Virus record (IMG/VR): IMGVR_UViG_3300025018_000098
Coordinates: 32,001-96,000 of that record
DNA length: 64,000 nucleotides
Strand: one strand, 5' to 3'
Source of the DNA: a virus
Translations under genes and position numbers: made by a program
Notes under the pieces: model-generated
Told to the model about the DNA's origin: nothing
Database searches by the model: none
The model's input: only the letters and a program-made list of their open reading frames with translations
Shown: positions 1 through 59,790 of the stretch, one piece after another
How the letters are laid out: each line of letters starts with the position of its first letter
Position numbering within the stretch: the stretch's first letter is position 1

Positions 1-1370
1 TTCCACGTGACATGGTCCGGAAGCACCACCTTCTTCTTCAGGGCATCCTGTGGGGACAGCATCTCTGTCTTGCCCGTCTTGAGGTTGTACAGGCGCACCA
101 GCGGCTGCCGGTCCTTCGTCTGCGTCCCTGACGTGAGGTGAAGCATCGTCCCCGGGCTGCCCTCCGGCGTGAACACGGGGTCGAGGAAGCCAAGCTGGGA
201 AGGGTCTACGGCCCGGCTCGAGTCAGACAAGGCGTGGTCAGACTTGACGCCGCCGTCGCCCATGATCGTGACCTGCGACCTGTCCGCCAGCATCGAGAGG
301 GGGTTGGTCTGTGTGGCGAGGGTTCCGATACCGTCCTTGGCGAACACATGAACGACGGGATCTCGGAACAGGTCCGGCATCACAACGTTGCGGATGGCGC
401 TCGAGTGCCCAGCCAAGATGGCCTCACGCACCTTCGGCTTCGCCAGGGACTTCATGATGCGTGTATGGATGCCCTTCTTGGACGTCCGCAGCTGGTCGAC
501 GAAGTGATCGGTAGGCGTCCAGAGCTCCTTGAAGTGGAGGGCATCGATGGGGTCCGAGTCTACCTTGCCTGCGCTCACATTCAGCAGCTTCGAGGACGCA
601 CGTAGGATGCCGTCTTCGTTTACGTGGTCGTGCGCCTTGCCCAGTGTCGTCTTCATGACGTCTGGGTCAACCTGGGTGGACTGGAAGTAGGACTCCACGG
701 CCATCTTAGGCGTAACCCCAGTGGGCATCGCAGAGCCGTGCACCTGCTTGTAGAACTTGGCCAGATCCTTCTCAGGGTTGGACTTCTTCTTATTGCTCTC
801 GAATGCCTCAGCGCCCCAGGCCTTCTTCATGGCCTCGTCGGATACCCCAGCAGCCTGGAGTACTGAGTACACGGGGATCTTGTTGCCGATGTCCATGGAC
901 ATGGAGCCGGTGGCAGGATCCATCACAATCTCAAAGCGCTTGCCCTTGGACAGCTGGAACTGTGCCTTGAACTCCCCGTCTCGCTCTGTGGGTTTGACGT
1001 ACGCGCCGGGCTTCAAGCGCCACTGGTTGCGGAGGATCTTTTCCTTGCCATCCACGATGTAGCTGTAGTGCCGGGTGGTCTTCGGGATCTCAGCCAGGTT
1101 CACGTTGTCCCGTGTGACGTGGACCTTACCTGTCGCCTTGTCTACGATCTCCACGGTCCCCAGCACTGGGACGCTCCAGCTCTGCCCCTTCATGCGTGCA
1201 GCGAGCTGTCCCTTGATATCGTCGATCCCCTTTTCGTCGTGCGCCGTGATGCCGGAGACCCGCACCTCGAACTCCCCCGAGGGGTCGTCCATGGGGAAGG
1301 TGCTCTTGATCTCGTCGATGAACTGGGTACGGAGCTCGTCGAACTGATGGGTGGGGTCGGTGTTCAGCAC
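1..1370 (-). CDS. rpoB: Phage-encoded DNA-directed RNA polymerase beta subunit, N-terminal ~456 aa (continues past window edge)
   Basis: Not in ORF track; hand-translated open frame from GTG 1370 (in-frame TAG at 1380-1382). [33 protein letters not shown] matches RpoB [81 protein letters not shown] matches [23 protein letters not shown]...RDVHPTHYGRVCPIETPEG. Confidence 0.93.
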   Translation of the reverse strand, partial: [456 protein letters not shown]

Positions 1371-1376
1371 GCTTGC

Positions 1377-1406
1377 AGTCTACTCGGCAGGTGTTTCGGG
1401 GGTCAA
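1377..1406 (-). promoter_or_regulatory. Class B promoter TTGACC-N18-TAGACT, 6 nt before GTG of rpoB-like gene (leaderless)
   Basis: -35 at 1406-1401, -10 at 1382-1377; no Shine-Dalgarno. Confidence 0.75.
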
Positions 1407-1420
1407 TCATACCCCCGAAA
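1394..1420. repeat. Perfect 10-bp inverted repeat between divergent promoters
   Basis: TTTCGGGGGT-caatcat-ACCCCCGAAA. Confidence 0.85.
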
Positions 1421-1435
1421 AGCCTTTCTTGTGTG

Positions 1436-1453
1436 GCCTATAAGCAACGTGGA
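1436..1453 (+). promoter_or_regulatory. Class A phage promoter motif
   Basis: GCCTATAAGCAACGTGGA; the same 11-mer core occurs at 11149, 54415(-) and 63612. Confidence 0.8.
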
Positions 1454-1460
1454 GACATCT

Positions 1461-1598
1461 ATGGCCAAGAGATCAAATGCATCCAGCAAAAAAGCACAAG
1501 CCGAAAAGGAAAAAGAGGAGCGACCTACCTCGTCCCTCGACGAGTATGAGCGGGAAGTACTGGAGGTACTCGACCACGTAATGGAGGGGCCCAAGTGA
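1461..1598 (+). CDS. Small charged hypothetical protein, 45 aa
   Basis: GGAG SD then ATG 1461 (MAKRSNASSKK...); first gene after class A motif; true start lies inside track ORF 1068..1598. Confidence 0.7.
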   Translation: MAKRSNASSKKAQAEKEKEERPTSSLDEYEREVLEVLDHVMEGPK

Positions 1599-1696: not shown

Positions 1697-1985
1697 GGTG
1701 CGCTGCCCCCTATGCGGCGCCGGGATAGAGATCTTCGGGGATCCCAGAAACAATGACCCCCCGACGGATGCTGTCGTCGCACTGCAGGGGCAGTGGCTGT
1801 ACTCGGCGGAGTATCAGACGCCACTCTTCGTCTGTGATCCGGACACAGAGCTGACCGTCATTCAGCTAGCTACTGGACAGCTAGCACTACTGCCCGACAC
1901 CGAGGGCTACCCAACCAAGCACTACCACCATGAATGCCTCTGTGAGGCCACCAGTGAGGACGAGGAAGATGACGACGAAGATTGA
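1686..1985 (+). CDS. Zn-finger-like hypothetical protein, 99 aa, acidic tail
   Basis: SD AAGGAGG; CPLC ... HHEC. Confidence 0.7.
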   Translation: MEHEVRCPLCGAGIEIFGDPRNNDPPTDAVVALQGQWLYSAEYQTPLFVCDPDTELTVIQLATGQLALLPDTEGYPTKHYHHECLCEATSEDEEDDDED

Positions 1986-3099
1986 AGTGAACGCCCCGGC
2001 CAAGGGCTACCAGGACGTGCGAGCGATTGTGCTCGAGGAGCTGCGGGCACAAGAGAAGCACCAGCATCTGTTCATCCCAGGGGTGTTCGGCCCTCCGGGG
2101 ATCGGCAAGTCCGACATGATGTTGGACATCTGCATCGAGCTGCAGCGCACCTTCCGCCCCCAGAACACCGGGGACAACTCGGACCCCTCCGACATCGCAG
2201 GCATCGCAGTGCCTCAAGGATTGTTGGAGGCGTACGGGAACCAGTACGCCAAGACCGCGGCGGACACCAACGCGCTACGTACCCCCGAGGTGCAGAAGAT
2301 TGTGTGGGCCTTGAACCGAGCTGCGGCAGAGGCCTGCGAAGAGGCGGTCATGTTGTTCTTCGATGACATCGACAAGGCTCCTCCGATCGTAGCGGCAGGG
2401 CTCGTGGGCCTCTTCGGCACACGCTCCTTCCGAGACTACCGGCTGCACAAGGACTCGCTGCTCGTAGCTGCCGGTAACAGGCTTGGAGATGATGTCCTGG
2501 CCAGTGAGATGAGCGAGTCGCTGCGAGGGCGCATGACCATCATCGAGCTCGTTCCCAACCTCAAGGACTTTGTCGGCTTCGCGAAGGAGAACCCGGACGA
2601 CGTTCACCCTGCAGTCGTCACGTTCCTGCAGGCGTACCCCGAGTACCTGTTCGCCCTGCCCAAGGAGGGTGAGTACCGCAACCCCAACCCTCGCTCATAC
2701 GTCGAGCTCTCTCGGCTGCTGTATGACATCCCGGAGTCGCGCTGGGATGGGGCAGTGGCACGCAAGGTCGGGCAGAGCACCGCAGTCACTTGGAAGAAGT
2801 GGTTCAACATCCTGGCCAAGATCGACCTCAACGCCATCCTGTACCAGGGTGAGCTCCCCAAGGAGGAGAATCCTCTGAAGGCACGGCAGCTCAACTACGG
2901 GGCCATGTTCCGGCTTCTGCAGCACATCGTAACCAGCGAGATCAAGGAGGGCTGGACCGGTCTCGAGAAGTTCATCGGCAGCTTGGAGCCCGAGTTCCGG
3001 GTCGCCATGCTCGTCCAAATCCCACAGGCAAAGCGAAGCCAGCTCGCGTCCAAGTACGAGGGTGCAGCTGAGCTCATCATGGAGACTCTGATCAAATGA
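1969..3099 (+). CDS. MoxR-like AAA+ ATPase
   Basis: Walker A GPPGIGKS, Walker B LFFDDID, sensor-1 AAGN, Arg finger LRGRM, sensor-2 NPRSY; adjacent VWA partner. Confidence 0.88.
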   Translation: MTTKIEVNAPAKGYQDVRAIVLEELRAQEKHQHLFIPGVFGPPGIGKSDMMLDICIELQRTFRPQNTGDNSDPSDIAGIAVPQGLLEAYGNQYAKTAADTNALRTPEVQKIVWALNRAAAEACEEAVMLFFDDIDKAPPIVAAGLVGLFGTRSFRDYRLHKDSLLVAAGNRLGDDVLASEMSESLRGRMTIIELVPNLKDFVGFAKENPDDVHPAVVTFLQAYPEYLFALPKEGEYRNPNPRSYVELSRLLYDIPESRWDGAVARKVGQSTAVTWKKWFNILAKIDLNAILYQGELPKEENPLKARQLNYGAMFRLLQHIVTSEIKEGWTGLEKFIGSLEPEFRVAMLVQIPQAKRSQLASKYEGAAELIMETLIK

Positions 3100-4313
3100 T
3101 TGTTCCCGGACCCGACGCGGAAGTGCATCAAATCATAGATTCGGCAGCGACCGAGCTGGTGGTGCGCTTCCCATTGGCCGGGCTCTCCCTTTACGGGAGG
3201 GCCGTGGTCATACGACAACAAGGCGACTGCCCCACAGCCGCAACAGACGGGCGCAATATTCTTTGCGGCCCAGACTTCCTACGGGAGATGTACACAACAA
3301 GTGGAACCGGCGGTGTCACCTTCGTGCTCTTGCATGAGTGGGCGCACATCTTTTTCAACCACGTCGGACGTAGGGGAGATCGCCTACCCAAGATCTGGAA
3401 TATCGCCGCGGACCTCTACACGAATCAGCAGTGCGAGGACATCCTCGTCACCAAGACACCTGGTGGTGGGGTAAAGCCAGAACCTCAGTACATCGGCAAG
3501 ACTGTCGAAGAGATCTACGACATGCTGCTGGATACAGCTTCCAAGAGGAACCCAGAGGATCCCGAGAAGGGGATCGAGGAGGCGATGAAGGGGGAGTCCA
3601 AGCCAGAGAACTTTGGGAGCGGGGCTGACTTGCTGCCTCCCTCTACCGACATCGAGGACGTGGCAGAGACGGATGCCTTCCGGGAGGGGTTCATCGAAGA
3701 GCTGCTCGAGAACCAGTCCCTCATGGAAATGAACCCCACGGCCAAGCTCCCCACGGCGTTCAGAGAACGCTTTGAGCAGCTCAAGGACGGCCGAGTCCCC
3801 TGGGAGCGACTCATCATGGGTCGGGTCATGGCCGAGCTCGGGCACGACTGCGCCACGTACTCACCCCCCAACCGCAGGAGGCACTACCCCCTTGTGATCT
3901 CACCCTCGTACCGGGCCCTGAAGGAGCGCAAGCTCATGTTGGCCATCGATGTGTCCTACTCCGTGGGACAGGATCTCATGAGGCTCTTCATCTCTTCGGT
4001 CACCAACGCGGCCAAGCGAGCCACAGAGACACGCATCGTCACCTTCGACTCCTGCATTCGAGAGGACTACATCACACAGGACCCTGGGAGTATCCTCAAG
4101 AACATTCGGTTCATCTCTGGGGCACACTCCCACACGAGCGTCGTGGATGTCTTCAGTATCGTGGACACGTACAAGCCGCGGAGCCTCGCAGTCCTTACGG
4201 ATGGCTTCGTACGACTGCCAAGCAAGACATACCCGCGCACGATGTGGCTCATCCCACGTGGGGGGTGCCCTCAATCCTGGGGAACGAACTACACACTGGA
4301 CATTGCATGGTGA
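3096..4313 (+). CDS. HEXXH metallopeptidase-like + VWA domain protein (DUF2201-type)
   Basis: TAATDG, HEWAH, WNIAAD; C-terminal MIDAS-like DVSYS and LTDG; ATGA-coupled to the ATPase. Confidence 0.85.
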   Translation: MIVPGPDAEVHQIIDSAATELVVRFPLAGLSLYGRAVVIRQQGDCPTAATDGRNILCGPDFLREMYTTSGTGGVTFVLLHEWAHIFFNHVGRRGDRLPKIWNIAADLYTNQQCEDILVTKTPGGGVKPEPQYIGKTVEEIYDMLLDTASKRNPEDPEKGIEEAMKGESKPENFGSGADLLPPSTDIEDVAETDAFREGFIEELLENQSLMEMNPTAKLPTAFRERFEQLKDGRVPWERLIMGRVMAELGHDCATYSPPNRRRHYPLVISPSYRALKERKLMLAIDVSYSVGQDLMRLFISSVTNAAKRATETRIVTFDSCIREDYITQDPGSILKNIRFISGAHSHTSVVDVFSIVDTYKPRSLAVLTDGFVRLPSKTYPRTMWLIPRGGCPQSWGTNYTLDIAW

Positions 4314-5839
4314 ACCAAGAACTGAACAACGCGCTCGCAGACACAATCTTCTGCACACAACACGCTCGAGCCTTCGGTAGGGGCACGGGGTACGGGATCC
4401 GGAGCCCCCTGTGGGACTGCGCACTTCTCGTGTTTGGGCTTGATGCCTGGAAGCACTACGAGAAGTTAGGTATGGCGGCCCGCATAGATCCTACGGAGGC
4501 CGACGGAATACCGAAGAAGAACAACCAGGGGCGGGATGTCCAACGTGCTAGTCCGCTAGCTGCAGTAGAGGTCATGCGCACAACCCTGGGCGACTCCACT
4601 CGCCTGGGGCTCGACCCTTTGTTCTGCATCGAAGACCTGCACGGGTACTTCACGCAGAACATCTATGCGTACCATGAGTCCTTTCCGCTGAACATCGCGA
4701 CGGCGTTCATGCTGTACGGGGACGTCCATACTCAGACAGAGGGCCGCAGGCTCTACGCGCATCTCCTAGACCCCGGGAGCCGCATCAACCTGCGCTTGGT
4801 GAATAACACACAGATGTCCTATGGAGGGCCCATCTCTCGCCTCTCCTCTTCTTGGGCACTGCCTGTGTTCCCCGAGGACCTCGGCGTGCCTCCGCTCCCA
4901 GACATAGACAAAACGGACACCCTGTACTGCCCTGCCCACCTATCCTGGCTGACGGAAGAGGCTGCCGAACGAATGGTGAGCAGTATCCAGCTGTCCTCTC
5001 AGTACGAGACGGTGGTTATGCGGTATCTCAACCAGCGCTTCGGGCGCCGCTGGGATGCCTTGTTGGAGAAGAACGCTCGAAGCGCCTTGGCTCGATACAC
5101 GAAGCTGCAGCCAGACTACGTATACCTAACCCACCTGCTTCGGTGTCTGCCCCCGGCAGATGCCCATGAGTGGATCAATGCTCGAACGCAGGGCGGGAAC
5201 AAGATCTATGCAGTGCTGCATGTGACTGTGCGGGATTCCCCAGCGGGGTTCCGTAAGAACGGCTACCGAACGTTGTCTAGCAGCTCTAAGTTGGAGATCA
5301 TCCCATACATCGTAGAGCCGTTGACGATAGCTGATGTGAAGGCGCTGTCCCCGAAAAACCGAACTGCAGTGCTGTACTACATGCCTTGGCGGCTACTCGA
5401 GGAGGTAGTCACGGAGCATCGTAGCAAGATCTCTGCGTCGCTGCTGAAGGTAGGTGTGAACGAGGCCACGAATCTGGATTGGTTACGTGACTGCATGTCC
5501 CCGCACGAGAAGAGGTACACCACTCCTCACGAGTACCAGTCGGCCTTCTCCGGAAACGACCCAGCGAAGTTCATGCACGGGTGGGAGACCATGATGCCAC
5601 TCGTGGTGACCTCCTATGAGGAGTCTCGGAAGTTCCGGGAGACCTTCGTAGCGAAGTACGGCTACGGTACAGCTGTCCTGCTCGCGCACAGGTACTCGGT
5701 GAACCTGAGGGACGGCGCAGACAAGGGGCCCATCAACCAACTACTAGATCGAGCAGCGATACCCGGCGAGGTGCGTGAGGAGTTCCTCACGAGCATCCCT
5801 CAGCTAGGTACGGACTACAAGTTCCAGTGGGAGTTCTGA
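4307..5839 (+). CDS. Hypothetical protein, ~510 aa
   Basis: Long ORF overlapping the previous stop and ending at a terminator; no motif recognised. Confidence 0.7.
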   Translation: MVNQELNNALADTIFCTQHARAFGRGTGYGIRSPLWDCALLVFGLDAWKHYEKLGMAARIDPTEADGIPKKNNQGRDVQRASPLAAVEVMRTTLGDSTRLGLDPLFCIEDLHGYFTQNIYAYHESFPLNIATAFMLYGDVHTQTEGRRLYAHLLDPGSRINLRLVNNTQMSYGGPISRLSSSWALPVFPEDLGVPPLPDIDKTDTLYCPAHLSWLTEEAAERMVSSIQLSSQYETVVMRYLNQRFGRRWDALLEKNARSALARYTKLQPDYVYLTHLLRCLPPADAHEWINARTQGGNKIYAVLHVTVRDSPAGFRKNGYRTLSSSSKLEIIPYIVEPLTIADVKALSPKNRTAVLYYMPWRLLEEVVTEHRSKISASLLKVGVNEATNLDWLRDCMSPHEKRYTTPHEYQSAFSGNDPAKFMHGWETMMPLVVTSYEESRKFRETFVAKYGYGTAVLLAHRYSVNLRDGADKGPINQLLDRAAIPGEVREEFLTSIPQLGTDYKFQWEF

Positions 5840-5874: not shown

Positions 5875-7767
5875 CTATTGCAGGGAGGCTCGCCGTGGGG
5901 GGAGCTGCTCAGGCATGGGACGCATGTCTACGCCGGTCCCTGGCGCAGGGCCGATCATGTTCTGCCGCACGAGCTCCGCCATCTCAGGCTGACTCTTCTG
6001 CAGCTGGGCCATGTGCTGCTGCCGTACCTCCATGGGGAGGCCTTGGAGCTGTTGAGCATACCCCTGTGCCAGCTGGTTCAGTGGGATGCCCGTCCCGGCC
6101 CCAGAGAGGCCAGAGCCCTGTGAATCCTGGAACGGGCTGCTGCTCTCCCCAGAGTCCGCCTCAGCGGCAGCCTGGGCCTCCTGCTGAGCTCTGCGCTGGG
6201 ATTCCATCATCACCTCTTCAGACTTGGCCTGGTACCGAGCTGATGTCACACCCGCCTCGCCCTGAGCCTCCGCCATGAGGAGCTGCTGCTTCTTGGTGGC
6301 CTCGGACTTGATGGCAGACTCAGCGATGATGAGCTTGTTCTCGTCCTCCATCTTGAAGTCGGAGAGGCCCAGCAGCGTGGTGTCGGAGAGCTTGGATGCC
6401 TGGTTCAGCTGGAAGGCGTACGCCTGACGCTGCAGGTCATCGGCCATCTTGAAGGGCTTGAACCGTCCCTCGATCTCTGGCCAGCCCAGGAATGCACCCA
6501 CACGCTGGATGACCCACTTGAGGAGACGGTACTGAGCTCGCACATTCGAGAGGAAGAAGTTCTCGAGCATACGCATGGAGACGCTGGTCCCGGCGTATGA
6601 CGCATTCCCGAACACGAGCTCTACCGGGAAGCCCATCCCTACTGTCAGCATCTCGCCCATCATGCGGATCTCTTGCATGAGGAGTAGGTTCCGGCCGTTC
6701 TCTCCAATGGTCTGCTGTCCCAGGGGGAAGGGCAGGATACCTACGTAGGCAGGGTCGAGACGCTGCCTGGTGAGCTCCCGCTGGATGTGTGTGCGCCAGT
6801 CTCGCAGGTCCACGGTACTGAACGGGTCTGCCCCTGCTGTGGCCGGCTGGGGGTACAAGAAGATCTGCGGCATCAAGTGCGTGAGGAGTACGGACTCCTG
6901 GGCCTTCTTCATGATCTGCATGTAGAAGGCATCCTTCAGCACGGGCATCAGAAGGGGGGTACCCCAGCCTCGCTCCGTACTGGACAGGGTCGGGCGGCGC
7001 ATGTGGAACACCTCCCGCTTGTCGAACACGAGAAGGCGGTCTGCCTTCGCAGCCTGAAGGAAGATCTCAGGCGTCGTAGACACCAAGTCCTTGCGTCCCA
7101 TCGTGAGCTCTCGCTTGAACTGCGAGGGCATGTCCAGCGCGTAGTCGTACCGACCCGTGGACTCGTTGTAGAAGATCGTGACGTTCTCCGGGTTCCACCG
7201 GATGAGGTTGATCTCAGAGGGCTTGGTGTAGTAGTCGTCTCGGCTGTTCGCGAAGTCGCTGTTGCCACACTTGGGGCAGGTCAGCCAGAACTTGTGGTTC
7301 GTGTAGCGCCAGTGCTGGCGGGACGTGATGGCGTCATGTGTCTTCGAACACGAGCCGCAGATGATCTGCTTCCGGAAGGGGAAGCTAGCCGAGATGAAAA
7401 CGTTCCCGTAGACATAGTAGTCGAGGTTGGCTTCGAACTGATGGACCGGGTAGTTGAGGTCCCCGTCCATGAACCCCTGCCACTTGTCCCGGACGCTGAG
7501 GCTCTTGTGCTGCATCGCCAGGTCAGTGACCGGGTACTCCGCTGCTCGAGTACAGATGGAGTTGATGATGCCGTGAGTCAGGTAGTAGTACCTGCAGAAG
7601 CTAAACAGGCTCTTGATGGAGGGTGGCGTGTAGGTGGACGCCTGGTCGAAGAACGGGTTCGCGAACGGAGCGTACTGCCGCCCAAGGATGTCTTGCTTGC
7701 TGGCCGAGTGAGCAAAGGTGGCTCCGCGGCCAGCACCAGCCATCGATGACGAGTTATTGAAGAACAT
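5875..7767 (-). CDS. Portal protein with Zn-ribbon insertion and Gln-rich C-terminus
   Basis: Portal-like segments YYLTHGIINSICTRAAEYP, VFHMRRP..WGTPLLMPVL, GMGFPVELVFG; inserted CGSC...CPKC. Confidence 0.75.
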   Translation of the reverse strand: MFFNNSSSMAGAGRGATFAHSASKQDILGRQYAPFANPFFDQASTYTPPSIKSLFSFCRYYYLTHGIINSICTRAAEYPVTDLAMQHKSLSVRDKWQGFMDGDLNYPVHQFEANLDYYVYGNVFISASFPFRKQIICGSCSKTHDAITSRQHWRYTNHKFWLTCPKCGNSDFANSRDDYYTKPSEINLIRWNPENVTIFYNESTGRYDYALDMPSQFKRELTMGRKDLVSTTPEIFLQAAKADRLLVFDKREVFHMRRPTLSSTERGWGTPLLMPVLKDAFYMQIMKKAQESVLLTHLMPQIFLYPQPATAGADPFSTVDLRDWRTHIQRELTRQRLDPAYVGILPFPLGQQTIGENGRNLLLMQEIRMMGEMLTVGMGFPVELVFGNASYAGTSVSMRMLENFFLSNVRAQYRLLKWVIQRVGAFLGWPEIEGRFKPFKMADDLQRQAYAFQLNQASKLSDTTLLGLSDFKMEDENKLIIAESAIKSEATKKQQLLMAEAQGEAGVTSARYQAKSEEVMMESQRRAQQEAQAAAEADSGESSSPFQDSQGSGLSGAGTGIPLNQLAQGYAQQLQGLPMEVRQQHMAQLQKSQPEMAELVRQNMIGPAPGTGVDMRPMPEQLPPRRASLQ

Positions 7768-52963: not shown

Positions 52964-53194
52964 TCAGAGCTCCCCGGCCAGGAAGCTGGTGATGTCGTCG
53001 GTGACCAGCACCTCAGCCTCGGCAGTGTTGCTTCGGCTGAGGCGATCACTCCCAGTTCGACCACGAAGGACACTCTTCATGAAGGTCACCTCGTCCTCGA
53101 GGCGGGTCTTCTCGTAGGTGTACCAAGAGTCGAGTGCCTCCTTGAGACGGTCGAGCTTAGCGTTTCGTGCGTCAATCTGGGATTGGGTAGCCAT
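52964..53194 (-). CDS. Hypothetical protein, 76 aa
   Basis: TGATG-coupled to sigma gene. Confidence 0.65.
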   Translation of the reverse strand: MATQSQIDARNAKLDRLKEALDSWYTYEKTRLEDEVTFMKSVLRGRTGSDRLSRSNTAEAEVLVTDDITSFLAGEL

Positions 53195-54003
53195 CAGGTC
53201 TTGTCCAGGTAGGGCTTGAGCTTCTCGAAGATCCTCGAGCGCACCCGGTAGACGCGGTCAGGCCTGAGGTCTGTCTTCTTCGCGACGGCGTTTGCATCGA
53301 AGTTCTTCTTCGACAGCTGTCCGCCCGGGTACATCGCCTGAAGGACCTTGTTCTCCTCTTCGTTGAGGATCGAAGGTGCCATCGAGATGATAGTCTTGAT
53401 CTGGCTAGGGGTCTGCAGGTCCATGTCACTGCGCGTGGGATCCATCCCCGTGTAGAGCTCACGTCGGATGCCCTTCTGCATCCGCTTGACCTGGTTGAGC
53501 CCCGCGTTGCCCGGCCACTGGAGGTGCGTCTGCAGCTCTTCTGGGGAGGGATCTCTTCCGTGAATGACCTTCAGCTCGTTGAAGGCGTTGTTATACTCCT
53601 GGTAGTTCTGTGTGTCGCTCTTGGACATGCGCGCGAAGTTACGACCCTTGGCCGCGTCCTCGCTGTACCGCTGGAACTGGGTGTACACGTGGGTCTTGAG
53701 CTTCGCCCCAGCCTCCGGGTTGTACGACTTGATGCCCTTCAGCATGTACTGACGCAGCTTGGCCTCCGTCGCCCCCGTGGGGAGTGCTCCGCCGTAGCCC
53801 GCGCTGTACCCCCTGGCCTTGGCCCTGACGAGCGGCTCCATGCTCGTCATCAAGGGGAGGAGATGTTTGTCTTGGCGCCCGTTCTGGTCCCACTTGTGCC
53901 AGAGGTCATGTTCCTTGCTCTCACGACCTTTGACCTCAGCGTACCGACCAGCACGGGCCGCCTGGTTGAACGCCTCGACACTGGCCTTCTTTTTCTTCGC
54001 CAT
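53194..54003 (-). CDS. Phage sigma-70-family factor (regions 2, 3, 4; FliA/SigF-like architecture)
   Basis: Region 2 PLVRAKARGY..MLKGIKSYNPEAGAKLKTHVY; region 3 ELKVIHGRDPSPEELQTHL; region 4 LNEEENKVL..AVAKKTDLRPDRVYRVRSRIFEKLK. Confidence 0.85.
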   Translation of the reverse strand: MAKKKKASVEAFNQAARAGRYAEVKGRESKEHDLWHKWDQNGRQDKHLLPLMTSMEPLVRAKARGYSAGYGGALPTGATEAKLRQYMLKGIKSYNPEAGAKLKTHVYTQFQRYSEDAAKGRNFARMSKSDTQNYQEYNNAFNELKVIHGRDPSPEELQTHLQWPGNAGLNQVKRMQKGIRRELYTGMDPTRSDMDLQTPSQIKTIISMAPSILNEEENKVLQAMYPGGQLSKKNFDANAVAKKTDLRPDRVYRVRSRIFEKLKPYLDKT

Positions 54004-54979: not shown

Positions 54980-57900
54980 TCAGCCGAGTAGACCCCTGGA
55001 CGCCAGCAGCTGCTGCAGATAGCGGAACACCGCCAGGCGCTTCTCCTTGCGGGTGTCGAGCTTGCTCGAGATGGCCTCATCTCCCTCGGCCTCCCGCTGC
55101 CGACGCGGACTACTCGTCTCATCTGGGTCCGTTGTCCCCAAGCCAAGAATCTGTTGGGGGCGCCCCTCCACGTTCCGTACGAGCTGGCGTAGGTCGTCGA
55201 TATCCCCGAAGGCCCTCGAGTGGAAGCCCTCCACGCCACGTACTACCACCCCGTCATCGTTGATCTCGAGGTTGGTCGAGCCGAACATGTCATACATCGT
55301 GGCGATGGGGCGCCAGGTGTACGAGCGTAGGAAGTCGTCGATGTCGTAGCGGTTCGTACGGATGATAGAGTACGCCTTCACGAGCTCATCAATAGCGTGG
55401 TTGATGGTGCCTCGGGCCTCGATCTCTGCGATCGTCCGCTGGTCGATGGGGTCTGGGTCGCCCTCGCCGGAGGGAGGACCCACCGCGTCCCCGTGAATCT
55501 CCGTGGTGTTCGAGGTAGCCCCCTGGTTGGCGCTCGTGAGCCCCCGATCCGGGTTCGTGTCCTCGAACACGGTCTCTGTTCCATTCGGAGCTCGGATGAC
55601 CAAGGGATCTACGATGGCGCCTGTGCCGAAGAAGTAGCCGTACAGCCCGCCGATCTGATGGCTGCGGTAGTGGTCCCCGTACCAAGGTGGGTACACCAGG
55701 TCCTCCGGTGGGAGGTTCTGGAAGGTGCGCTCATACACTCCGATCCGCTCCTCAATCTGGTACGCGCTGAAGGTCACCGTGATGGACGTCGTAGTCCCGG
55801 TGGAGCCCGCCCCGGAGTCATCGGTGACTGTTGTGTGGCCCGCCTGCTGCGTGCCTACAGAGCCTACCATGGCCATGACCTCGACCCCCAAGCTGCCCGC
55901 GGCTACCTCCTGGCCCACAGGGACTCGAGTACCGCGGTGCCTTCGCCCGGACACGTACCCTCCCGGAGCCCACAGAGGTACGGTGCTGTCTGACGCGAAA
56001 CGCAGCGGAGCCGCCTCTGTAGGGCCCGGGGGGAGGGCAGCGGACCCTCGGACGGTTCTACGACGTGACGGGGCTCTCTGGCCCTCCCTGCGGCGCTGGT
56101 ACTGGTCCGTTACGTCAGTGACCGACAGGATCTCACCACCTGTGGGGCCTCGGTCTGTGAGGCTAGGCGGCGATGTCCAAGCCACGATGCTGGTGACCGT
56201 GCGCTCGTGAGTACGGGTGAACCGGCTGCCCCCCTGTTGTTCCGTATCCCCCAGGAACTCGGTCTTCTCGTTGGTGGTGCGGGAGTAGCCCATCTGAATG
56301 CTGGTGGTGCCCTGCCCGCCAGCAGCGAGGCTGTGTGTGATAGATGTAGGTGTGCCTAGATACTGCGTGTCAGGCTGGATATCGATGAGATCCCGGGCCA
56401 GTTGCAACGCTCGAGTGTTTACAGCTAGGGCATCTCGCTCACTACCCCCTGGGACGTCTCCATTGCTTGGGAAACCGCCCTCCCCCTCCATCTGAGCTCG
56501 GACGATGGTGCGGGCTGCCTCATACTCACCCGCAGTCAGCTCGGTGCGAGGCTTGTACTTGTCGATGACCACAGCCGGGAAGCCAAGGACGACGAACGGG
56601 TTGAACTTCCCGTCCACTGTCATCTGCCTCGTCTGGAAGCGACGCTGAAAGAAGATGTGGTTACACGCCAGCTGGGCGTAGCCCACGCGCACCCCGTTGA
56701 TCTCGATGGACCCGCCTCGGATGGCGTGGAGATTGAGATCGCTCATGCGCTGGAACTCGGGGATGATGCCCGAGTAGAGCTCGTGATCCATGAGGTCCCG
56801 AATGAACCACGCAGGGGCATCCGAAATATCTGGGCTGTTGCTTCCCACACGGCCCCGACCAAGGGAGCGTCCGGTGCGTGTTCCCAGAGCTCGGCTGGGC
56901 GCCATGTAGAACCCATCGAAGAACATGTCCGACCCGAAGAAGGCACTGTGGGTCCGAAGCATCAATCGCGTCGTCTCCTTCAGGTAGTCCCGAGAGTACG
57001 AGAACGAGTTGTAGAGCTCCGGAAAGATGACGTTACACCGAGGGGGTGCCACCATCCAGACATCCGGCCGCCAGATCTGCGTCAGAAGCCGTGGAGGCGG
57101 ATCCGGCTGAGACGTAGCCCTCTGCACGCGCTTTCGGTGGTTGGTCGCCAGCACGTGGTTCATGTCCGAAATGATCTGGGTGCACATACGAACCACGGCC
57201 TGTCCAGCCCGGCTGTCTGGCGGGTAGAACGTATTGGTAGTGACGTTGCGCTGCCCTCGGCGAGTGTTCTGGGTGATACCTTGGAAGTTCGTAGTGGTAG
57301 CTGCGAACTTCTGGCTCACCTCCGGTCCCGCGTCATAGATGCTCGAGAACTCCCCGGACGAAGAAGGATCAATGCCGACCCTCCGAGCTCGCGCTCCGGC
57401 GTTGTCAGATAGTCGCTGCAGAGATCGGAGCTCTCGCGCCAGCCCTCCCCGCTCTCGAGACAGCGCCCTAGCCGAGTCTGGGGTCGTAGCCGACTGTTGG
57501 CGCTCGAGTAGGTTCTGTGCCCGATCCTTGATCGTACTGGCTGCTCGAGCAAGGGGTCGGGTTGCTGCATCATCCTCCAGACTGACCGTCTCAAACTGAG
57601 GCAGATTGGGGTCCTGGGTGGACGGCACGAAATGGGGCGACGTGATGGGAATGATCTGGTGGAAGATGAACTGCTGCAGCGCGTTGAGCACCGCCCGGAT
57701 GGCTACCTGCTTGCCCAGCCCGGCCAGCTTGCGACTGAACAGCGATCCGAAGCCGTGTGCCCGCAGGAGCCGCCGCTCATCTTCCCCTGAGAATGGGTTG
57801 GCGCCAACCATCTGCGTGAGGTGTAGACGCATCTCCGCCAAGGAGAAGAAGTCGTTGGTCCCTCGCACCGCCCGAGTGCCGTAGTAAGTCCCACCGATGG

Positions 57901-58549
57901 CTTCGATGATGTGCATCAGGCCGCCCTGTAGCGTGCCTCGCAGCTGAGGGTATGAGCGGGGTGGCGTCGCAATCATCGAGAGGATGATGTCCCCGCTGCC
58001 GCGCAGGAAGGAGTTGAACACCGTGGTGGATGCCCCCGTGAACGCTGCCCGGATACCCCCACCGCCCATGGAGAAGCCGCTGACCTGGTACTGGAATGCG
58101 TAGTCCCAGTAGCTCGAGAAGTCGAGGCACTGCAAGATCATGGAGCGTTGGGTGGGGTTCTTCTGATGCTGAACACCTGTGATCTCGCCGCCGAAGAGCA
58201 GTCGCCAGTTCTTGCTCTCCTTGTCTTCGTTCTCCTGCTGCGGGGAGCTGTCGAAACGTACTGCAGGTAGGATGCTGTCGAGCTCAGGATCGCGATACTG
58301 GGAGTGGCTAACCGAGACCCCGTCGCCCGCGATTCGGGCTCGGCTCGTAGATGGTGCCCCGTGGTAGAAATCGTAGAAGAAGACGTGAACCAACGACCGG
58401 GGCTTGAACTCCAGCGCAGCATCCATCGGCAGGATCTGGATAGAGCACGCGGCAGGGGTGTCCGCCTGAGACACAACATTTGCAGCGACGATTGGGATCT
58501 CAACACCCTCAACGAAGAGGCGGAGCCGGAGCAGGTGGGCATTTGCCAT
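54980..58549 (-). CDS. Baseplate hub protein (gp27/gpD-like), 1189 aa
   Basis: RLFVEGVEIP..ACSIQI..VHVF..LLFGGEI..LQCLD; late GKFNPFVVLGFP; two genes after tape measure. Confidence 0.65.
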   Translation of the reverse strand: MANAHLLRLRLFVEGVEIPIVAANVVSQADTPAACSIQILPMDAALEFKPRSLVHVFFYDFYHGAPSTSRARIAGDGVSVSHSQYRDPELDSILPAVRFDSSPQQENEDKESKNWRLLFGGEITGVQHQKNPTQRSMILQCLDFSSYWDYAFQYQVSGFSMGGGGIRAAFTGASTTVFNSFLRGSGDIILSMIATPPRSYPQLRGTLQGGLMHIIEAIGGTYYGTRAVRGTNDFFSLAEMRLHLTQMVGANPFSGEDERRLLRAHGFGSLFSRKLAGLGKQVAIRAVLNALQQFIFHQIIPITSPHFVPSTQDPNLPQFETVSLEDDAATRPLARAASTIKDRAQNLLERQQSATTPDSARALSRERGGLARELRSLQRLSDNAGARARRVGIDPSSSGEFSSIYDAGPEVSQKFAATTTNFQGITQNTRRGQRNVTTNTFYPPDSRAGQAVVRMCTQIISDMNHVLATNHRKRVQRATSQPDPPPRLLTQIWRPDVWMVAPPRCNVIFPELYNSFSYSRDYLKETTRLMLRTHSAFFGSDMFFDGFYMAPSRALGTRTGRSLGRGRVGSNSPDISDAPAWFIRDLMDHELYSGIIPEFQRMSDLNLHAIRGGSIEINGVRVGYAQLACNHIFFQRRFQTRQMTVDGKFNPFVVLGFPAVVIDKYKPRTELTAGEYEAARTIVRAQMEGEGGFPSNGDVPGGSERDALAVNTRALQLARDLIDIQPDTQYLGTPTSITHSLAAGGQGTTSIQMGYSRTTNEKTEFLGDTEQQGGSRFTRTHERTVTSIVAWTSPPSLTDRGPTGGEILSVTDVTDQYQRRREGQRAPSRRRTVRGSAALPPGPTEAAPLRFASDSTVPLWAPGGYVSGRRHRGTRVPVGQEVAAGSLGVEVMAMVGSVGTQQAGHTTVTDDSGAGSTGTTTSITVTFSAYQIEERIGVYERTFQNLPPEDLVYPPWYGDHYRSHQIGGLYGYFFGTGAIVDPLVIRAPNGTETVFEDTNPDRGLTSANQGATSNTTEIHGDAVGPPSGEGDPDPIDQRTIAEIEARGTINHAIDELVKAYSIIRTNRYDIDDFLRSYTWRPIATMYDMFGSTNLEINDDGVVVRGVEGFHSRAFGDIDDLRQLVRNVEGRPQQILGLGTTDPDETSSPRRQREAEGDEAISSKLDTRKEKRLAVFRYLQQLLASRGLLG

Positions 58550-58569: not shown

Positions 58570-59790
58570 TCAGAGGATAGTGTTCAGGCCTTGCGTCGCT
58601 GGCTCAAGAACCCCGTCTGCCTGCCGAATCCCGAAGGAGCCGAAGACCTGCAGTCCTGCGAACCCCGCCCTGCCCAGGAGCAGGTAGTTCGTGCTGGGGG
58701 CGGTCACATCGATGCCCATCTCTGTGAGCTGTCGCCGGGCTTCCTGCTCGAGAGCCTCTGGAGACTGGAGCTCGAGGTGCTTCCGCACCCGGTCGAGCTC
58801 TTGCTTATCGTACCGAGCGGACCCGGGATCTCTCTCAACGTACTCGTCCTCGTTGGAGTGGTATGGGTACGGGTCCCCTGTGTGCCCAGGCAGAAAGGCT
58901 TGGTTCGTGACCGGCTTCGTCACGATCTGGTTACCAATGCCTTCTGTTGGGAAGCGGATCTGCCTGCCGTAGAAGGTGTTCTTGATGGTCTCCAAGGTCT
59001 TCTGGATCGAGAACGTCGCATCGTTCTTATACTCTGCAGCTGCAGCCAGGAAGCCGCTCAACCCACCGCCGCTACCTGCAGTGGTTGCGGCAGGGAGGCT
59101 CGCATTCTGGGACACCTTGGGACCCACACCCCCCTCCCCAGGCTTCGACGGCTGTGCGTTCGAAGACACCCCCTGGCGGGTGCGGAGCGGCTTATACACG
59201 GAACCCACGTCAGAGAGGATGGAGTAGTTGGTGACGAAGAACTGAAACTGCAGCAGCTGCTTGTACGGATCCGCTGATGTGCCCACCGTCTGTGAGTTCA
59301 TCATGTACCCTTCGGCGACTACGTCATCGAAGTAGATGTACATACGGGCACTAGCCTCGAGCAGCTTGGTGCCTCGGAAGATGTTCTCATAGTTGTGCCA
59401 CCACTCTGACTTCCAGTTGAAGTCGTTGGTGTTGAGAAGCAGCCCTTGAAAGTTGAGCATCCGGGGTGACTCGCCAAAGAAGAAGATGTAGTCCTCTCCG
59501 AAGGTCTCCACAATCTGTTGCCGCTCCGCCCGTTGCTCCGTCACGTTGGTGATGATGAAGTTGGCGTAGTGGTCCGAGATACCTGTACGCTCCCCTTCCC
59601 GCTGAGACGAGGAGGAGTTCACGATTGGGATGGCGTTCCCCTGACTGTCAATCACCTTCATGATGCAGTAGGTGTCCTCCTTGATCTCGATTCCGCGCAT
59701 GGGTCGGCGAATATTGAGGAGCTTAGGGTCCTCCCGGACCAGGGTGGCCTCATTGAACGCGGAGGTGGTGACGGAGATGAAGACAGCCAT
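58570..59790 (-). CDS. Tail tube initiator/baseplate-tube junction-like protein
   Basis: ERQQIVETFGEDYIFFFGESPRMLNFQGLL..FQFFV tube-fold pattern; follows tape measure. Confidence 0.55.
   Translation of the reverse strand: MAVFISVTTSAFNEATLVREDPKLLNIRRPMRGIEIKEDTYCIMKVIDSQGNAIPIVNSSSSQREGERTGISDHYANFIITNVTEQRAERQQIVETFGEDYIFFFGESPRMLNFQGLLLNTNDFNWKSEWWHNYENIFRGTKLLEASARMYIYFDDVVAEGYMMNSQTVGTSADPYKQLLQFQFFVTNYSILSDVGSVYKPLRTRQGVSSNAQPSKPGEGGVGPKVSQNASLPAATTAGSGGGLSGFLAAAAEYKNDATFSIQKTLETIKNTFYGRQIRFPTEGIGNQIVTKPVTNQAFLPGHTGDPYPYHSNEDEYVERDPGSARYDKQELDRVRKHLELQSPEALEQEARRQLTEMGIDVTAPSTNYLLLGRAGFAGLQVFGSFGIRQADGVLEPATQGLNTIL

What the first reader, a model, noticed from the sequence alone, without database searches (positions are those of the whole stretch)
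1..1370. Streamlined, divergent RNAP beta subunit missed by the ORF track
The conserved TPEG motif falls at about residue 401, versus 563 in E. coli RpoB, so about 160 aa of N-terminal/lobe sequence are absent. Unlike the split phiKZ subunits, it appears continuous and bacteria-like over this stretch. Phages encoding unsplit multisubunit RNAP subunits are known mainly from metagenomes and are poorly characterised.
Basis: partly seen in the sequence, partly recalled or inferred. Interest (0 to 1): 0.75.

Follow-up and report, generated by a model that had tools for sequence, protein, structure and literature searches.

The report
Single-chain phage RNA polymerase, N-terminal part
The frame at the left edge of the window is the first 456 residues of a 2059-residue phage protein that joins both large subunits of a bacterial-type RNA polymerase in one chain; the phage has its own sigma factor but no alpha or omega subunit, and hundreds of uncultured relatives share this layout.

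Summary
Observation confirmed. Window 3-1370 (-) is an open frame that runs off the left edge, with an Rpb2 domain 3 match and TPEG at residue 401.

Interpretation partly right. In the 168,874-bp phage genome the frame continues to 2059 aa. It is a direct beta-beta' fusion with all Rpb2 and Rpb1 domains, both active-site lysines, the Asp triad (NGDIDGD, not NADFDGD), the bridge helix and the trigger loop.

The "160 missing residues" are mostly E. coli's own insert SI1 plus about 38 N-terminal residues. Against cyanobacterial beta, TPEG lies only about 18 residues earlier. An AF2 model of the beta part matches whole bacterial beta chains (TM 0.75). The real losses are the lineage-specific inserts and the beta' zinc-binding domain.

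The genome has one RNAP, no detectable alpha or omega, and a divergent sigma70-family factor at window 53194-54003. More than 240 fused homologues exist in metagenomes. On trees they and the Arash/D69 phages sit apart from 55 bacteria.

The gene follows the portal gene in 8 of 8 related genomes. It shares a TAGACT-N6-start motif with five other genes, at least two of them homologues of Arash structural proteins. Virion packaging is plausible but unproven.

This scan found the same enzyme earlier on three other phage genomes. No paper I searched describes it.

The parts
1..1370 (-). First 456 codons of the 2059-codon single-chain beta-beta' RNA polymerase gene. The whole gene is genome 27191-33370 (-), equal to L002:9191-15370 (-), so 4809 bases lie left of the window.
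129..320 (-). Rpb2 domain 3 (fork region), residues 351-414
   Evidence: (E 2.9e-08)
159..170 (-). TPEG motif, residues 401-404
   Evidence: T401, P402 and E403 are invariant or nearly so in alignments A1 and A4
261..341 (-). Equivalent of rifampicin cluster I (E. coli beta 507-533), residues 344-370, with Q513T, D516T, H526D, R529Q and S531T
   Evidence: alignment to Salmonella beta; drug insensitivity is inferred, not tested
1368..1370 (-). GTG start codon. An in-frame TAG lies four codons upstream and no Shine-Dalgarno sequence is present.
   Evidence: Homologue N-termini align from residue 2, and two of them also begin with V.
1377..1406 (-). Promoter-like TTGACC-N18-TAGACT, with TAGACT six bases before the start codon
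   Evidence: TAGACT-N6-start also sits at five other gene starts in the genome.
1394..1420 (.). Inverted repeat of 10 pairs, by the scan's count, over the -35 element (arms TTTCGGGGG / CCCCCGAAA)
5875..7767 (-). Portal gene, upstream of the RNAP gene on the same strand. A 4.5-kb block of plus-strand genes separates them here.
   Evidence: match to Arash portal gp204, E 2e-62; (portal-RNAP order in 5 of 5 related genomes)
53194..54003 (-). Divergent sigma70-family factor, 269 aa, the likely promoter-specificity partner of the RNAP

Best explanation
Window 1-1370 (-) encodes the N-terminal part of a 2059-residue single polypeptide. It is a complete bacterial-type beta subunit (residues 1-1013) joined directly to a beta-prime subunit (1014-2059).

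Shown:
- The junction has no linker. The beta C-terminal helix runs straight into beta-prime, which lacks its first ~17 residues.
- All catalytic elements are kept: the two barrel lysines K785 and K793, the Asp triad, the bridge helix, the trigger-loop His and the second zinc site.
- The lineage-specific inserts (SI1, SI2, i11, SI3) and the beta-prime N-terminal zinc-binding domain are absent.
- The phage genome has one such gene, no detectable alpha or omega, and one divergent sigma70-family gene. That sigma gene co-occurs with the polymerase in related phages.

Inferred:
- The chain plus the phage sigma forms a self-contained holoenzyme. The beta-prime clamp helices and the beta flap tip, which bind sigma in bacteria, are present.
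- It reads phage-specific promoters and is probably insensitive to rifampicin.
- The covalent link replaces the assembly role of the alpha dimer.
- The gene sits in the head and virion gene block just after the portal gene. It shares a TAGACT-N6-start element with five other genes, at least two of them homologues of Arash structural proteins. I therefore think the enzyme is made late and packaged into the capsid to start transcription in the next host. I put this at about even odds.
For: Full ORF and domains. PDB phmmer gives the beta-prime part 1110-2038 against B. subtilis beta-prime at E 1e-83, and the beta part 15-1009 against 8gzg_C.

Junction, inserts, zinc-binding-domain loss and conserved catalytic residues. 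Invariant in A1 are K785, R789, K793, D1402, D1404, D1406, C1711, C1773, C1780 and C1783.

AF2 model of residues 1-1013: pLDDT 84, pTM 0.80. It matches full bacterial beta chains at E 1e-70 and TMq about 0.75.

Single copy, no alpha, omega or Sigma70_r2 Pfam hit: with positive controls in 14 of 14 genomes for the alpha and omega families.

Sigma: BLASTP 1e-18 to Arash gp10; phrog_351 at 9e-05; FliA/WhiG at 8.7e-06. For the AF2 model, the 50 best Foldseek hits listed are all sigma70-family chains over about 250 columns. In 5 of 5 contigs with a sigma homologue an RNAP homologue is also present.

Family size. Of 268 homologues, 244 are 1900 aa or longer.

Not of recent host origin: bacterial loci are 24-30% identical, and trees place 55 (or 27) bacteria on one side at support 100.

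Context: portal-RNAP order in Arash, D69 and five IMG/VR genomes. TAGACT-N6-start lies at six gene starts. The next gene downstream has a coding-like base composition and only a weak match (E 0.006) to Arash structural protein gp238.

Arash virion mass spectrometry detected gp206, gp216 and sigma gp10 (PMC10585845).
Against: There is no biochemical evidence for any member of the fused clade.

Absence of alpha and omega rests on profile searches. A very divergent scaffold protein, or use of the host's alpha and omega, is not excluded.

The Arash virion evidence is weak. That study found 116 phage proteins in particles, including ribonucleotide reductases, a kinase and RNA ligases. Its authors themselves allow carry-over of abundant enzymes.

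The RNAP promoter has a good -35 element (TTGACC), so host sigma70 holoenzyme could transcribe the gene early. In that case packaging would not be needed.

The catalytic loop departs from the near-universal NADFDGD, so kinetics may differ.

The trees have no archaeal or eukaryotic outgroup, and the phage rows have unusual amino-acid composition.
Confidence: 0.8

Rival explanations
1. Non-virion polymerase in a T7-like cascade. Host RNA polymerase transcribes the phage RNAP gene (through its TTGACC-N18-TAGACT promoter) and the sigma gene (through a CCTATAAG-type promoter) early. The phage holoenzyme then reads the late promoters. Nothing is packaged.
For: The RNAP promoter is the only TAGACT-type site with a sigma70-like -35 element (9 of 12 matches). 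A CCTATAAG motif lies just upstream of the sigma operon at window 54423. The Arash particle proteome looks contaminated by soluble enzymes.
Against: The gene lies after the portal gene inside the head and virion block in 8 of 8 related genomes. It shares its start-proximal motif with genes for structural-protein homologues. Arash gp206 gave the highest spectral count of all particle proteins.
Confidence: 0.4
2. Hybrid enzyme. The phage chain supplies only beta-beta' and must recruit the host's alpha dimer, and perhaps omega, to fold and work.
For: All known bacterial cores need alpha2 for assembly (established knowledge). No phage alpha was found. The beta and beta-prime folds are otherwise close to bacterial ones.
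Against: Identity to any bacterial beta or beta-prime is only 24-30%, so alpha-contact surfaces are unlikely to fit many hosts. The split phage RNAPs of phiKZ-type phages are multisubunit enzymes in which no alpha equivalent is described (PMC7824862). Covalent tethering removes the main assembly need, which is my inference.
Confidence: 0.25
3. Recently captured host rpoB-rpoC, for example from a bacterium with fused genes such as Helicobacter or Wolbachia.
For: Fused rpoB-rpoC genes exist in those bacteria (PMC7483510, citing Zakharova 1999). NCBIfam models of those fusions do match.
Against: The scores are 399 and 364 bits against curated cut-offs of 5372 and 4632. All 79 bacterial loci are 24-30% identical and have separate ORFs. 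The bacteria form one side of the tree at support 100.
Confidence: 0.01
4. Artefact or dead gene. An assembly or frameshift error joined two genes, or the altered catalytic loop marks an inactive relic.
For: NGDIDGD departs from NADFDGD.
Against: The same architecture is seen in more than 240 homologues from many samples. There are no internal stops. The three Asp, both Lys and the zinc-site Cys are invariant across sequences 33-60% identical. Inteins in relatives target exactly these motifs, which is typical of essential active sites.
Confidence: 0.02

Closest known systems
RNA polymerase of Salmonella phage Arash (gp206 + gp216, with sigma gp10) and of Vibrio phages D69, D148 and D181
   Same: Same phage lineage at long range. 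RNAP identity is 28-30% over 97% of the length. Major capsid protein, large terminase, portal, sigma and several structural proteins are shared. Beta is fused to beta-prime at the same junction, the zinc-binding domain is lost, and the portal gene lies just upstream.
   Different: In Arash and D69 the chain is cut after the catalytic domain, giving 1525 aa plus 607 aa. The cut lies at query residue ~1494, close to the cyanobacterial rpoC1/rpoC2 split. Here the whole enzyme is one 2059-aa chain. The catalytic loop is AADYDGD there and NGDIDGD here.
mReC phages (Weinheimer and Aylward 2020, PMC7481178)
   Same: Tailed phages from metagenomes that encode bacterial-type beta and beta-prime branching apart from cellular RNAPs.
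   Different: That paper does not mention a beta-beta' fusion in mReC. Its filter required NADxDGD, which this protein fails. The major capsid proteins it detected matched T4-type PF07068, and its terminases with Pfam hits matched PF03237. Here the capsid protein hits neither, and the terminase hits GpA_ATPase.
Fused RpoB-RpoC of Helicobacter and Wolbachia
   Same: Beta and beta-prime in one chain, joined beta C-terminus to beta-prime N-terminus.
   Different: Those are cellular enzymes of about 2840-2890 aa that work with alpha2 and omega. This protein scores far below their NCBIfam cut-offs and is about 800 residues shorter.
Split multisubunit RNAPs of phiKZ and AR9 jumbo phages
   Same: Phage-encoded two-barrel RNAPs related to bacterial beta and beta-prime. 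One set is packaged in the virion (PMC7824862). No phage alpha equivalent is described in that review.
   Different: Those are cut into 4-5 polypeptides, come in two paralogous sets and have no sigma. This is the opposite architecture, with one set and a sigma70-family partner. PHROG matches to those families are weak (1e-26 to 1e-04).
Single-chain two-barrel RNAPs (crAss-like gp66, YonO, P23-45 tape-measure RNAP)
   Same: One polypeptide carrying both barrels. Some are packaged in the virion.
   Different: Those have no recognisable Rpb1 or Rpb2 domain homology (PMC7481178). This protein matches six Rpb domain families, four above the Pfam cut-off, and aligns along whole bacterial subunits.

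Membership tests
Bacterial-type RNAP beta (RpoB) | Rpb2 domain 3 (fork) and domain 6 (barrel with flap) above the Pfam cut-offs | tested here: met
   PF04565 at 32 bits (cut-off 21) and PF00562 at 172 bits (cut-off 23.4)
Bacterial-type RNAP beta (RpoB) | Two active-site lysines (E. coli K1065 and K1073) and the RH pair | tested here: met
   K785, R789, H790 and K793. K785, R789 and K793 are invariant in A1.
Bacterial-type RNAP beta (RpoB) | Whole-subunit fold including protrusion, lobe and flap | tested here: met
   AF2 model with pTM 0.80. Foldseek against bacterial beta chains gives TMq 0.71-0.76 over about 1100 columns, E 1e-70.
Bacterial-type RNAP beta (RpoB) | Score above the NCBIfam equivalog cut-off | tested here: not met
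   NF001616 at 312 bits against a cut-off of 896, and TIGR02013 at 281 against 801. It is a homologue, not an orthologue of cellular rpoB.
Bacterial-type RNAP beta-prime (RpoC) | Mg-binding Asp triad in the NADFDGD loop | tested here: met
   NGDIDGD at residue 1400. The three Asp and the Gly are invariant, but N, A and F are not conserved.
Bacterial-type RNAP beta-prime (RpoC) | N-terminal zinc-binding domain (E. coli C70, C72, C85, C88) | tested here: not met
   Beta-prime 64-99 is deleted in this protein, in five fused homologues and in Arash and D69
Bacterial-type RNAP beta-prime (RpoC) | Second zinc site, bridge helix, trigger loop with His | tested here: met
   C1711, C1773, C1780 and C1783 are invariant. 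Bridge helix and trigger-loop alignment.
Cellular fused beta/beta' (Helicobacter NF007172, Wolbachia NF011417) | Score above the curated equivalog cut-off | tested here: not met
   399 bits against 5372, and 364 bits against 4632
mReC as defined in PMC7481178 | NADxDGD motif in the beta-prime match | tested here: not met
   NGDIDGD; filter text
mReC as defined in PMC7481178 | Major capsid protein of PF07068 and terminase of PF03237 type | tested here: not met
   No PF07068 hit for the capsid protein, and the terminase hits PF05876
Arash-like RNAP phages | Beta fused to beta-prime, portal gene upstream, cognate sigma, shared capsid, terminase and portal proteins | tested here: met
   It differs in lacking the split inside beta-prime.
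Sigma70 family (the partner protein) | Sigma2-sigma3-sigma4 fold and sequence-profile match | tested here: inconclusive
   Fold: the 50 best Foldseek hits listed are all sigma factors, E 1e-06 to 5e-04, but TM is 0.2-0.35 and pLDDT 76. Profiles: FliA/WhiG at 25.6 bits against a cut-off of 189.6, no Sigma70_r2 Pfam hit, and Sigma70_r3 at E 0.025.
Virion-packaged RNAP | Protein present inside purified particles and ejected into the host | not testable with these tools
   Indirect only: Arash mass spectrometry, synteny and the shared promoter motif

The most novel reading that the evidence does not exclude
A two-gene transcription machine. One 228-kDa chain holds the whole catalytic core of a bacterial-type RNA polymerase and needs no alpha, omega or zinc finger. 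Together with one phage sigma factor it is packaged in the capsid and injected, so that the phage is independent of, and blind to inhibitors of, the host polymerase. The fusion would be an adaptation that lets the core refold after passage through the tail without an assembly scaffold. The family has hundreds of clusters with a relaxed catalytic loop (xxDxDGD). It would then be the smallest natural sigma-dependent multisubunit-type RNAP.
Probability: 0.35. Interest if true: 0.8.

Novelty: new variant of a known kind. Interest (0 to 1): 0.68.

Why it matters
Bacterial RNA polymerase is thought to need the alpha dimer to assemble beta and beta-prime. A natural, widespread enzyme with both large subunits in one slimmed chain, with a sigma partner and no alpha or omega gene beside it, would be a ready-made minimal model for sigma-dependent transcription. 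It would also be a compact orthogonal expression tool.

The family shows which parts of the core can be lost: the zinc-binding domain, all lineage-specific inserts, and the N, A and F residues of NADFDGD. It extends the range of phage RNAP architectures from heavily split (phiKZ) to fully fused.

The family is large and apparently undescribed. The 50%-identity library holds 1571 representatives at E below 1e-30. This subclade would also have been removed by the motif filter of the one published survey.

Tried and rejected
1. Pfam Sigma70_r2 search of the whole genome found nothing. Pfam on five ORFs around window 52-55 kb gave no family. The sigma was found only through Arash gp10, PHROGs, NCBIfam and the fold.
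2. The word-index homologue search for the sigma returned only one relative. I used a pattern scan of IMG/VR instead.
3. PHROGs and Pfam gave nothing for the three genes downstream of the RNAP or for the 531-aa gene at window 4244-5839.
Gene neighbourhoods of the metagenomic homologues could therefore be checked only through five IMG/VR genomes.
5. The default MAFFT run in treekit timed out. I aligned with FFT-NS-i and built FastTree and quick IQ-TREE trees. No careful mixture-model tree, AU test or archaeal or eukaryotic outgroup was run.
6. Five literature searches found no paper describing a fused bacterial-type beta-beta' in phages. Subscription journals are not covered.
7. I considered that the 160-residue deficit meant loss of the beta lobe. 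The alignment to cyanobacterial beta and the fold rule this out.
8. I considered recent host capture and assembly artefact, and rejected both (see rivals).
Full report
**Where the feature lies.** The window is bases 32001-96000 of a single 168,874-bp IMG/VR virus record that CheckV rates as complete. With open ends allowed, the ORF listing shows a frame at 3..1370 on the minus strand, 456 codons, starting with GTG and running off the left edge. That is why an ordinary ORF list would miss it. Pfam finds RNA_pol_Rpb2_3 at residues 351-414, and TPEG starts at residue 401.

**The whole gene.** I fetched the DNA to the left (L002). The frame continues to 2059 codons, at L002:9191-15370 (-), which is genome 27191-33370. 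Pfam matches along the chain are Rpb2_3, Rpb2_6, Rpb1_1, Rpb1_2, Rpb1_3 and Rpb1_5. Against PDB sequences, residues 15-1009 align with a whole bacterial beta. Residues 1110-2038 align with B. subtilis beta-prime 170-1199 at E 1e-83, and the 60 best hits listed are all bacterial. The protein is therefore a beta-beta' fusion.

- The join is direct in a MAFFT alignment with Salmonella beta and beta-prime. The last beta helix is followed at once by the beta-prime N-terminal segment, which lacks its first ~17 residues.
- The catalytic loop is NGDIDGD at residue 1400.
- The two barrel lysines (K785 and K793, matching E. coli K1065 and K1073), the Asp triad and the four Cys of the second zinc site are invariant in a 12-sequence alignment spanning 33-59% identity to this protein.
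- The bridge helix and the trigger loop with its His align.

**What is and is not missing.** Relative to the E. coli-numbered Salmonella subunits, the gaps are these:

- beta 2-38
- beta 221-361 (insert SI1)
- beta 939-1047 (SI2)
- beta 1126-1198 (i11)
- beta-prime 1-17
- beta-prime 64-99 (the zinc-binding domain with its four Cys)
- beta-prime 148-177
- most of beta-prime 948-1185 (SI3 and neighbouring sequence)
- the C-terminal tail

The names of the inserts are from my knowledge of Lane and Darst 2010.

Against Synechocystis beta, the first 408 residues align continuously with residues 28-426, and TPEG lies only about 18 residues earlier. An AF2 model of residues 1-1013 was built on 33 sequences (pLDDT 84, pTM 0.80). 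It superposes on complete bacterial beta chains over about 1100 columns with TMq 0.71-0.76 at E about 1e-70. Protrusion, lobe, fork, flap and barrel are therefore present. Only residues 903-970, which pack on beta-prime in real enzymes, are of low confidence.

"Streamlined" is fair in the sense of a core without lineage-specific inserts. It is not fair in the sense of a lost lobe. The one loss from the conserved core is the beta-prime zinc-binding domain, which is also absent in every phage relative I aligned.

The rifampicin cluster I equivalent carries substitutions at the classic resistance positions: Q513T, D516T, H526D, R529Q and S531T. Insensitivity to the drug is an inference.

**Other subunits.** Profile searches of all six frames of the genome found only this one copy of the Rpb2_6 and Rpb1_2 domains. 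They found no alpha N-terminal domain, alpha C-terminal domain, omega or Sigma70_r2. The alpha and omega families were found in all 14 control genomes, and Sigma70_r2 in 11 of 14.

The 269-aa product of window 53194-54003 (-) has the following support:

- It matches Arash gp10, annotated as a sigma factor, at E 1e-18.
- It matches phrog_351 (sigma factor) at 9e-05.
- It matches the FliA/WhiG NCBIfam model at 8.7e-06, far below the cut-off.
- Its AF2 model has pLDDT 76. The 50 best PDB hits listed are all sigma70-family chains aligned over about 250 columns. TM-scores are low, as expected for a flexible three-domain protein.

A pattern scan found 28 homologues on IMG/VR contigs. All five contigs I tested also encode the polymerase, in frames of 2089, 2135, 2922, 1526 and 1770 aa. 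The beta-prime clamp helices and the beta flap tip, which are the sigma docking sites of bacterial cores, are present in the alignment.

**Relatives.** A word-index search returned more than 100 clusters of 2050-2100 aa proteins on contigs of 150-200 kb, the closest 61% identical. An exhaustive HMMER search with the beta part against 1.84 billion representatives gave 7841 hits, 1571 of them below 1e-30. The best 150 are almost all 2000 aa or longer.

Of the 268 homologues in hand, 153 are 1900-2200 aa, 91 are longer and 24 are shorter. The shorter ones are fragments or separate beta subunits.

The catalytic loop is NADFDGD in only 77. GGD[IVL]DGD occurs in 79 and NGDIDGD in 13. Only the pattern xxDxDGD is constant.

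The longer proteins carry 126 insertions of 120 aa or more. Those I saw annotated carry intein and homing-endonuclease domains. The insertions cluster at the catalytic loop (45), the trigger-loop region (19), the lysine motif (about 19) and TPEG (12).

Cultured relatives are Salmonella phage Arash and Vibrio phages D69, D148 and D181, at 28-30% identity over 97% of the length. There, beta and the N-terminal half of beta-prime form one 1525-aa protein, and the rest of beta-prime a 607-aa protein. The cut at query residue ~1494 lies next to the cyanobacterial gamma/beta'' boundary.

This phage also shares capsid, terminase, portal, sigma and several structural proteins with Arash at 23-36% identity.

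**Not a recent host gene.** A scan of one genome per prokaryote species returned 79 bacterial rpoB-rpoC loci from many phyla. All are 24-30% identical and have separate ORFs. It also returned one fused 2873-aa gene on a 204-kb phage-like contig binned into a Bacteroidales MAG.

On a FastTree tree (87 rows, 1961 columns), the 55 bacteria form one side of a branch at support 100, and the fused phages with Arash and D69 form the other. Cobetia phage Carin-5, which has separate subunits, is a long branch at the base of the bacteria. A quick IQ-TREE run on 42 rows gives the same split at SH-aLRT 100.

NCBIfam scores are far below every equivalog cut-off, including the Helicobacter and Wolbachia fusion models. 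Bacterial models score about four times higher than archaeal ones. No outgroup was included, so I make no claim about depth of origin.

**Relation to the literature.** The mReC paper (PMC7481178) describes phages with bacterial-type beta and beta-prime. It mentions fusion only for crAssphage. Its filter required NADxDGD, which this subclade fails. Its marker families, capsid PF07068 and terminase PF03237, are not matched here. The Arash paper annotates gp206 simply as beta subunit. Five searches found no description of a fully fused bacterial-type enzyme in phages. The same enzyme has been reported by this scan on three other phage genomes. Those reports agree with what I found independently here.

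**How it is probably used.**

*Shown.* The GTG start is preceded by an in-frame TAG four codons upstream, by no Shine-Dalgarno sequence, and by TTGACC-N18-TAGACT with TAGACT six bases from the start. TAGACT-N6-start occurs at exactly six predicted gene starts in the genome. At least two of the other five (window 58570-59790 and 54980-58549, which follows it in the same operon) are homologues of Arash structural proteins.

The portal gene lies just upstream on the same strand in Arash, D69 and five IMG/VR genomes. In this phage and one other, a 4.5-kb block is inserted between the two genes. The next gene downstream has a coding-like base composition and only a weak match (E 0.006) to Arash structural protein gp238.

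In Arash particles gp206 had the highest spectral count, and gp216 and sigma gp10 were also found.

*Inferred.* The enzyme is made with the virion proteins and packaged. A single chain would ease refolding after ejection.

*Caveats.* The Arash preparation also contained many soluble enzymes. The RNAP promoter has a host-like -35 element under a 10-pair inverted repeat. A second motif, CCTATAAGCAAGGTG followed by a ribosome-binding site, heads about 17 mostly small genes and lies just upstream of the sigma operon. A host-primed cascade is therefore a serious rival. I put virion delivery at about even odds.

**Verdict.** The finding is real, and more interesting than described because the chain is a complete fusion. 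It is less extreme than described in the N-terminal region. It is a new variant of a known kind (phage bacterial-type RNAP), belongs to a very large uncharacterised family, and has been met by this scan before.

Noticed in passing
window 1930-5839 (+): A block of plus-strand genes sits between the portal and RNAP genes. It holds a MoxR-like AAA_5 ATPase (389 aa), a DUF2201 metallopeptidase/VWA-like protein (405 aa) and a 531-aa protein with no family match. Most relatives have portal and RNAP adjacent. One IMG/VR genome (G003) has a gap of similar size.
   Followed up: partly
window 1430-1598 (+): The motif CCTATAAGCAACGTGGAG is followed by ATG at 1461 and a 45-codon ORF, divergent from the RNAP gene. 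The same motif (consensus CCTATAAGCAAGGTGAAGGAG, then ATG) occurs about 17 times in the genome. Most copies head small minus-strand genes at 100-155 kb, often just after T-rich hairpin tails.
   Followed up: partly
genome 158694, 95590, 91790, 84478, 78658 and 33370 (all minus strand; window 63590, 59790, 52478, 46658 and 1370): TAGACT lies exactly six bases before the start codon at six predicted gene starts, usually preceded by TGG, with no Shine-Dalgarno sequence. This suggests leaderless mRNAs from one promoter class. Only the RNAP copy has a sigma70-like -35 element.
   Followed up: partly
homologues P0027, P0084, P0088, P0105, P0124, P0164 and others: 91 of 268 homologues carry large insertions, up to four per protein, for a total length of up to 4739 aa. 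The ones I saw annotated carry intein or homing-endonuclease domains. The insertions concentrate in the catalytic Asp loop, the trigger-loop region, the barrel lysine motif and TPEG.
   Followed up: partly
L017 (DAOQAF010000001.1, 204 kb): A phage-like contig with a fused 2873-aa RNAP is filed inside a Bacteroidales MAG. It is either a binning artefact or a hint to a host.
   Followed up: no
L028, L032, L033, L052, L055, L058, L059, L062, L067, L071, L072, L081: MAGs labelled Gammaproteobacteria or Pseudomonadales have small beta subunits (1074-1166 aa). On the RNAP tree they group with Patescibacteria and Saccharimonadia rather than with Salmonella and Acinetobacter. These are probably taxonomic mislabels in the records.
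   Followed up: no
L015 (Cobetia phage Carin-5): A third phage layout: sigma, then beta-prime (1083 aa), then beta (927 aa) as separate adjacent genes. The sequences are very divergent, with a terminal branch of 1.85.
   Followed up: no
L002:8076-9191 (-): The 371-aa gene that starts at the RNAP stop codon was dropped by my simple gene caller but has a coding-like base composition. It has a weak match to Arash structural protein gp238, which lies next to the PAAR spike gene.
   Followed up: partly
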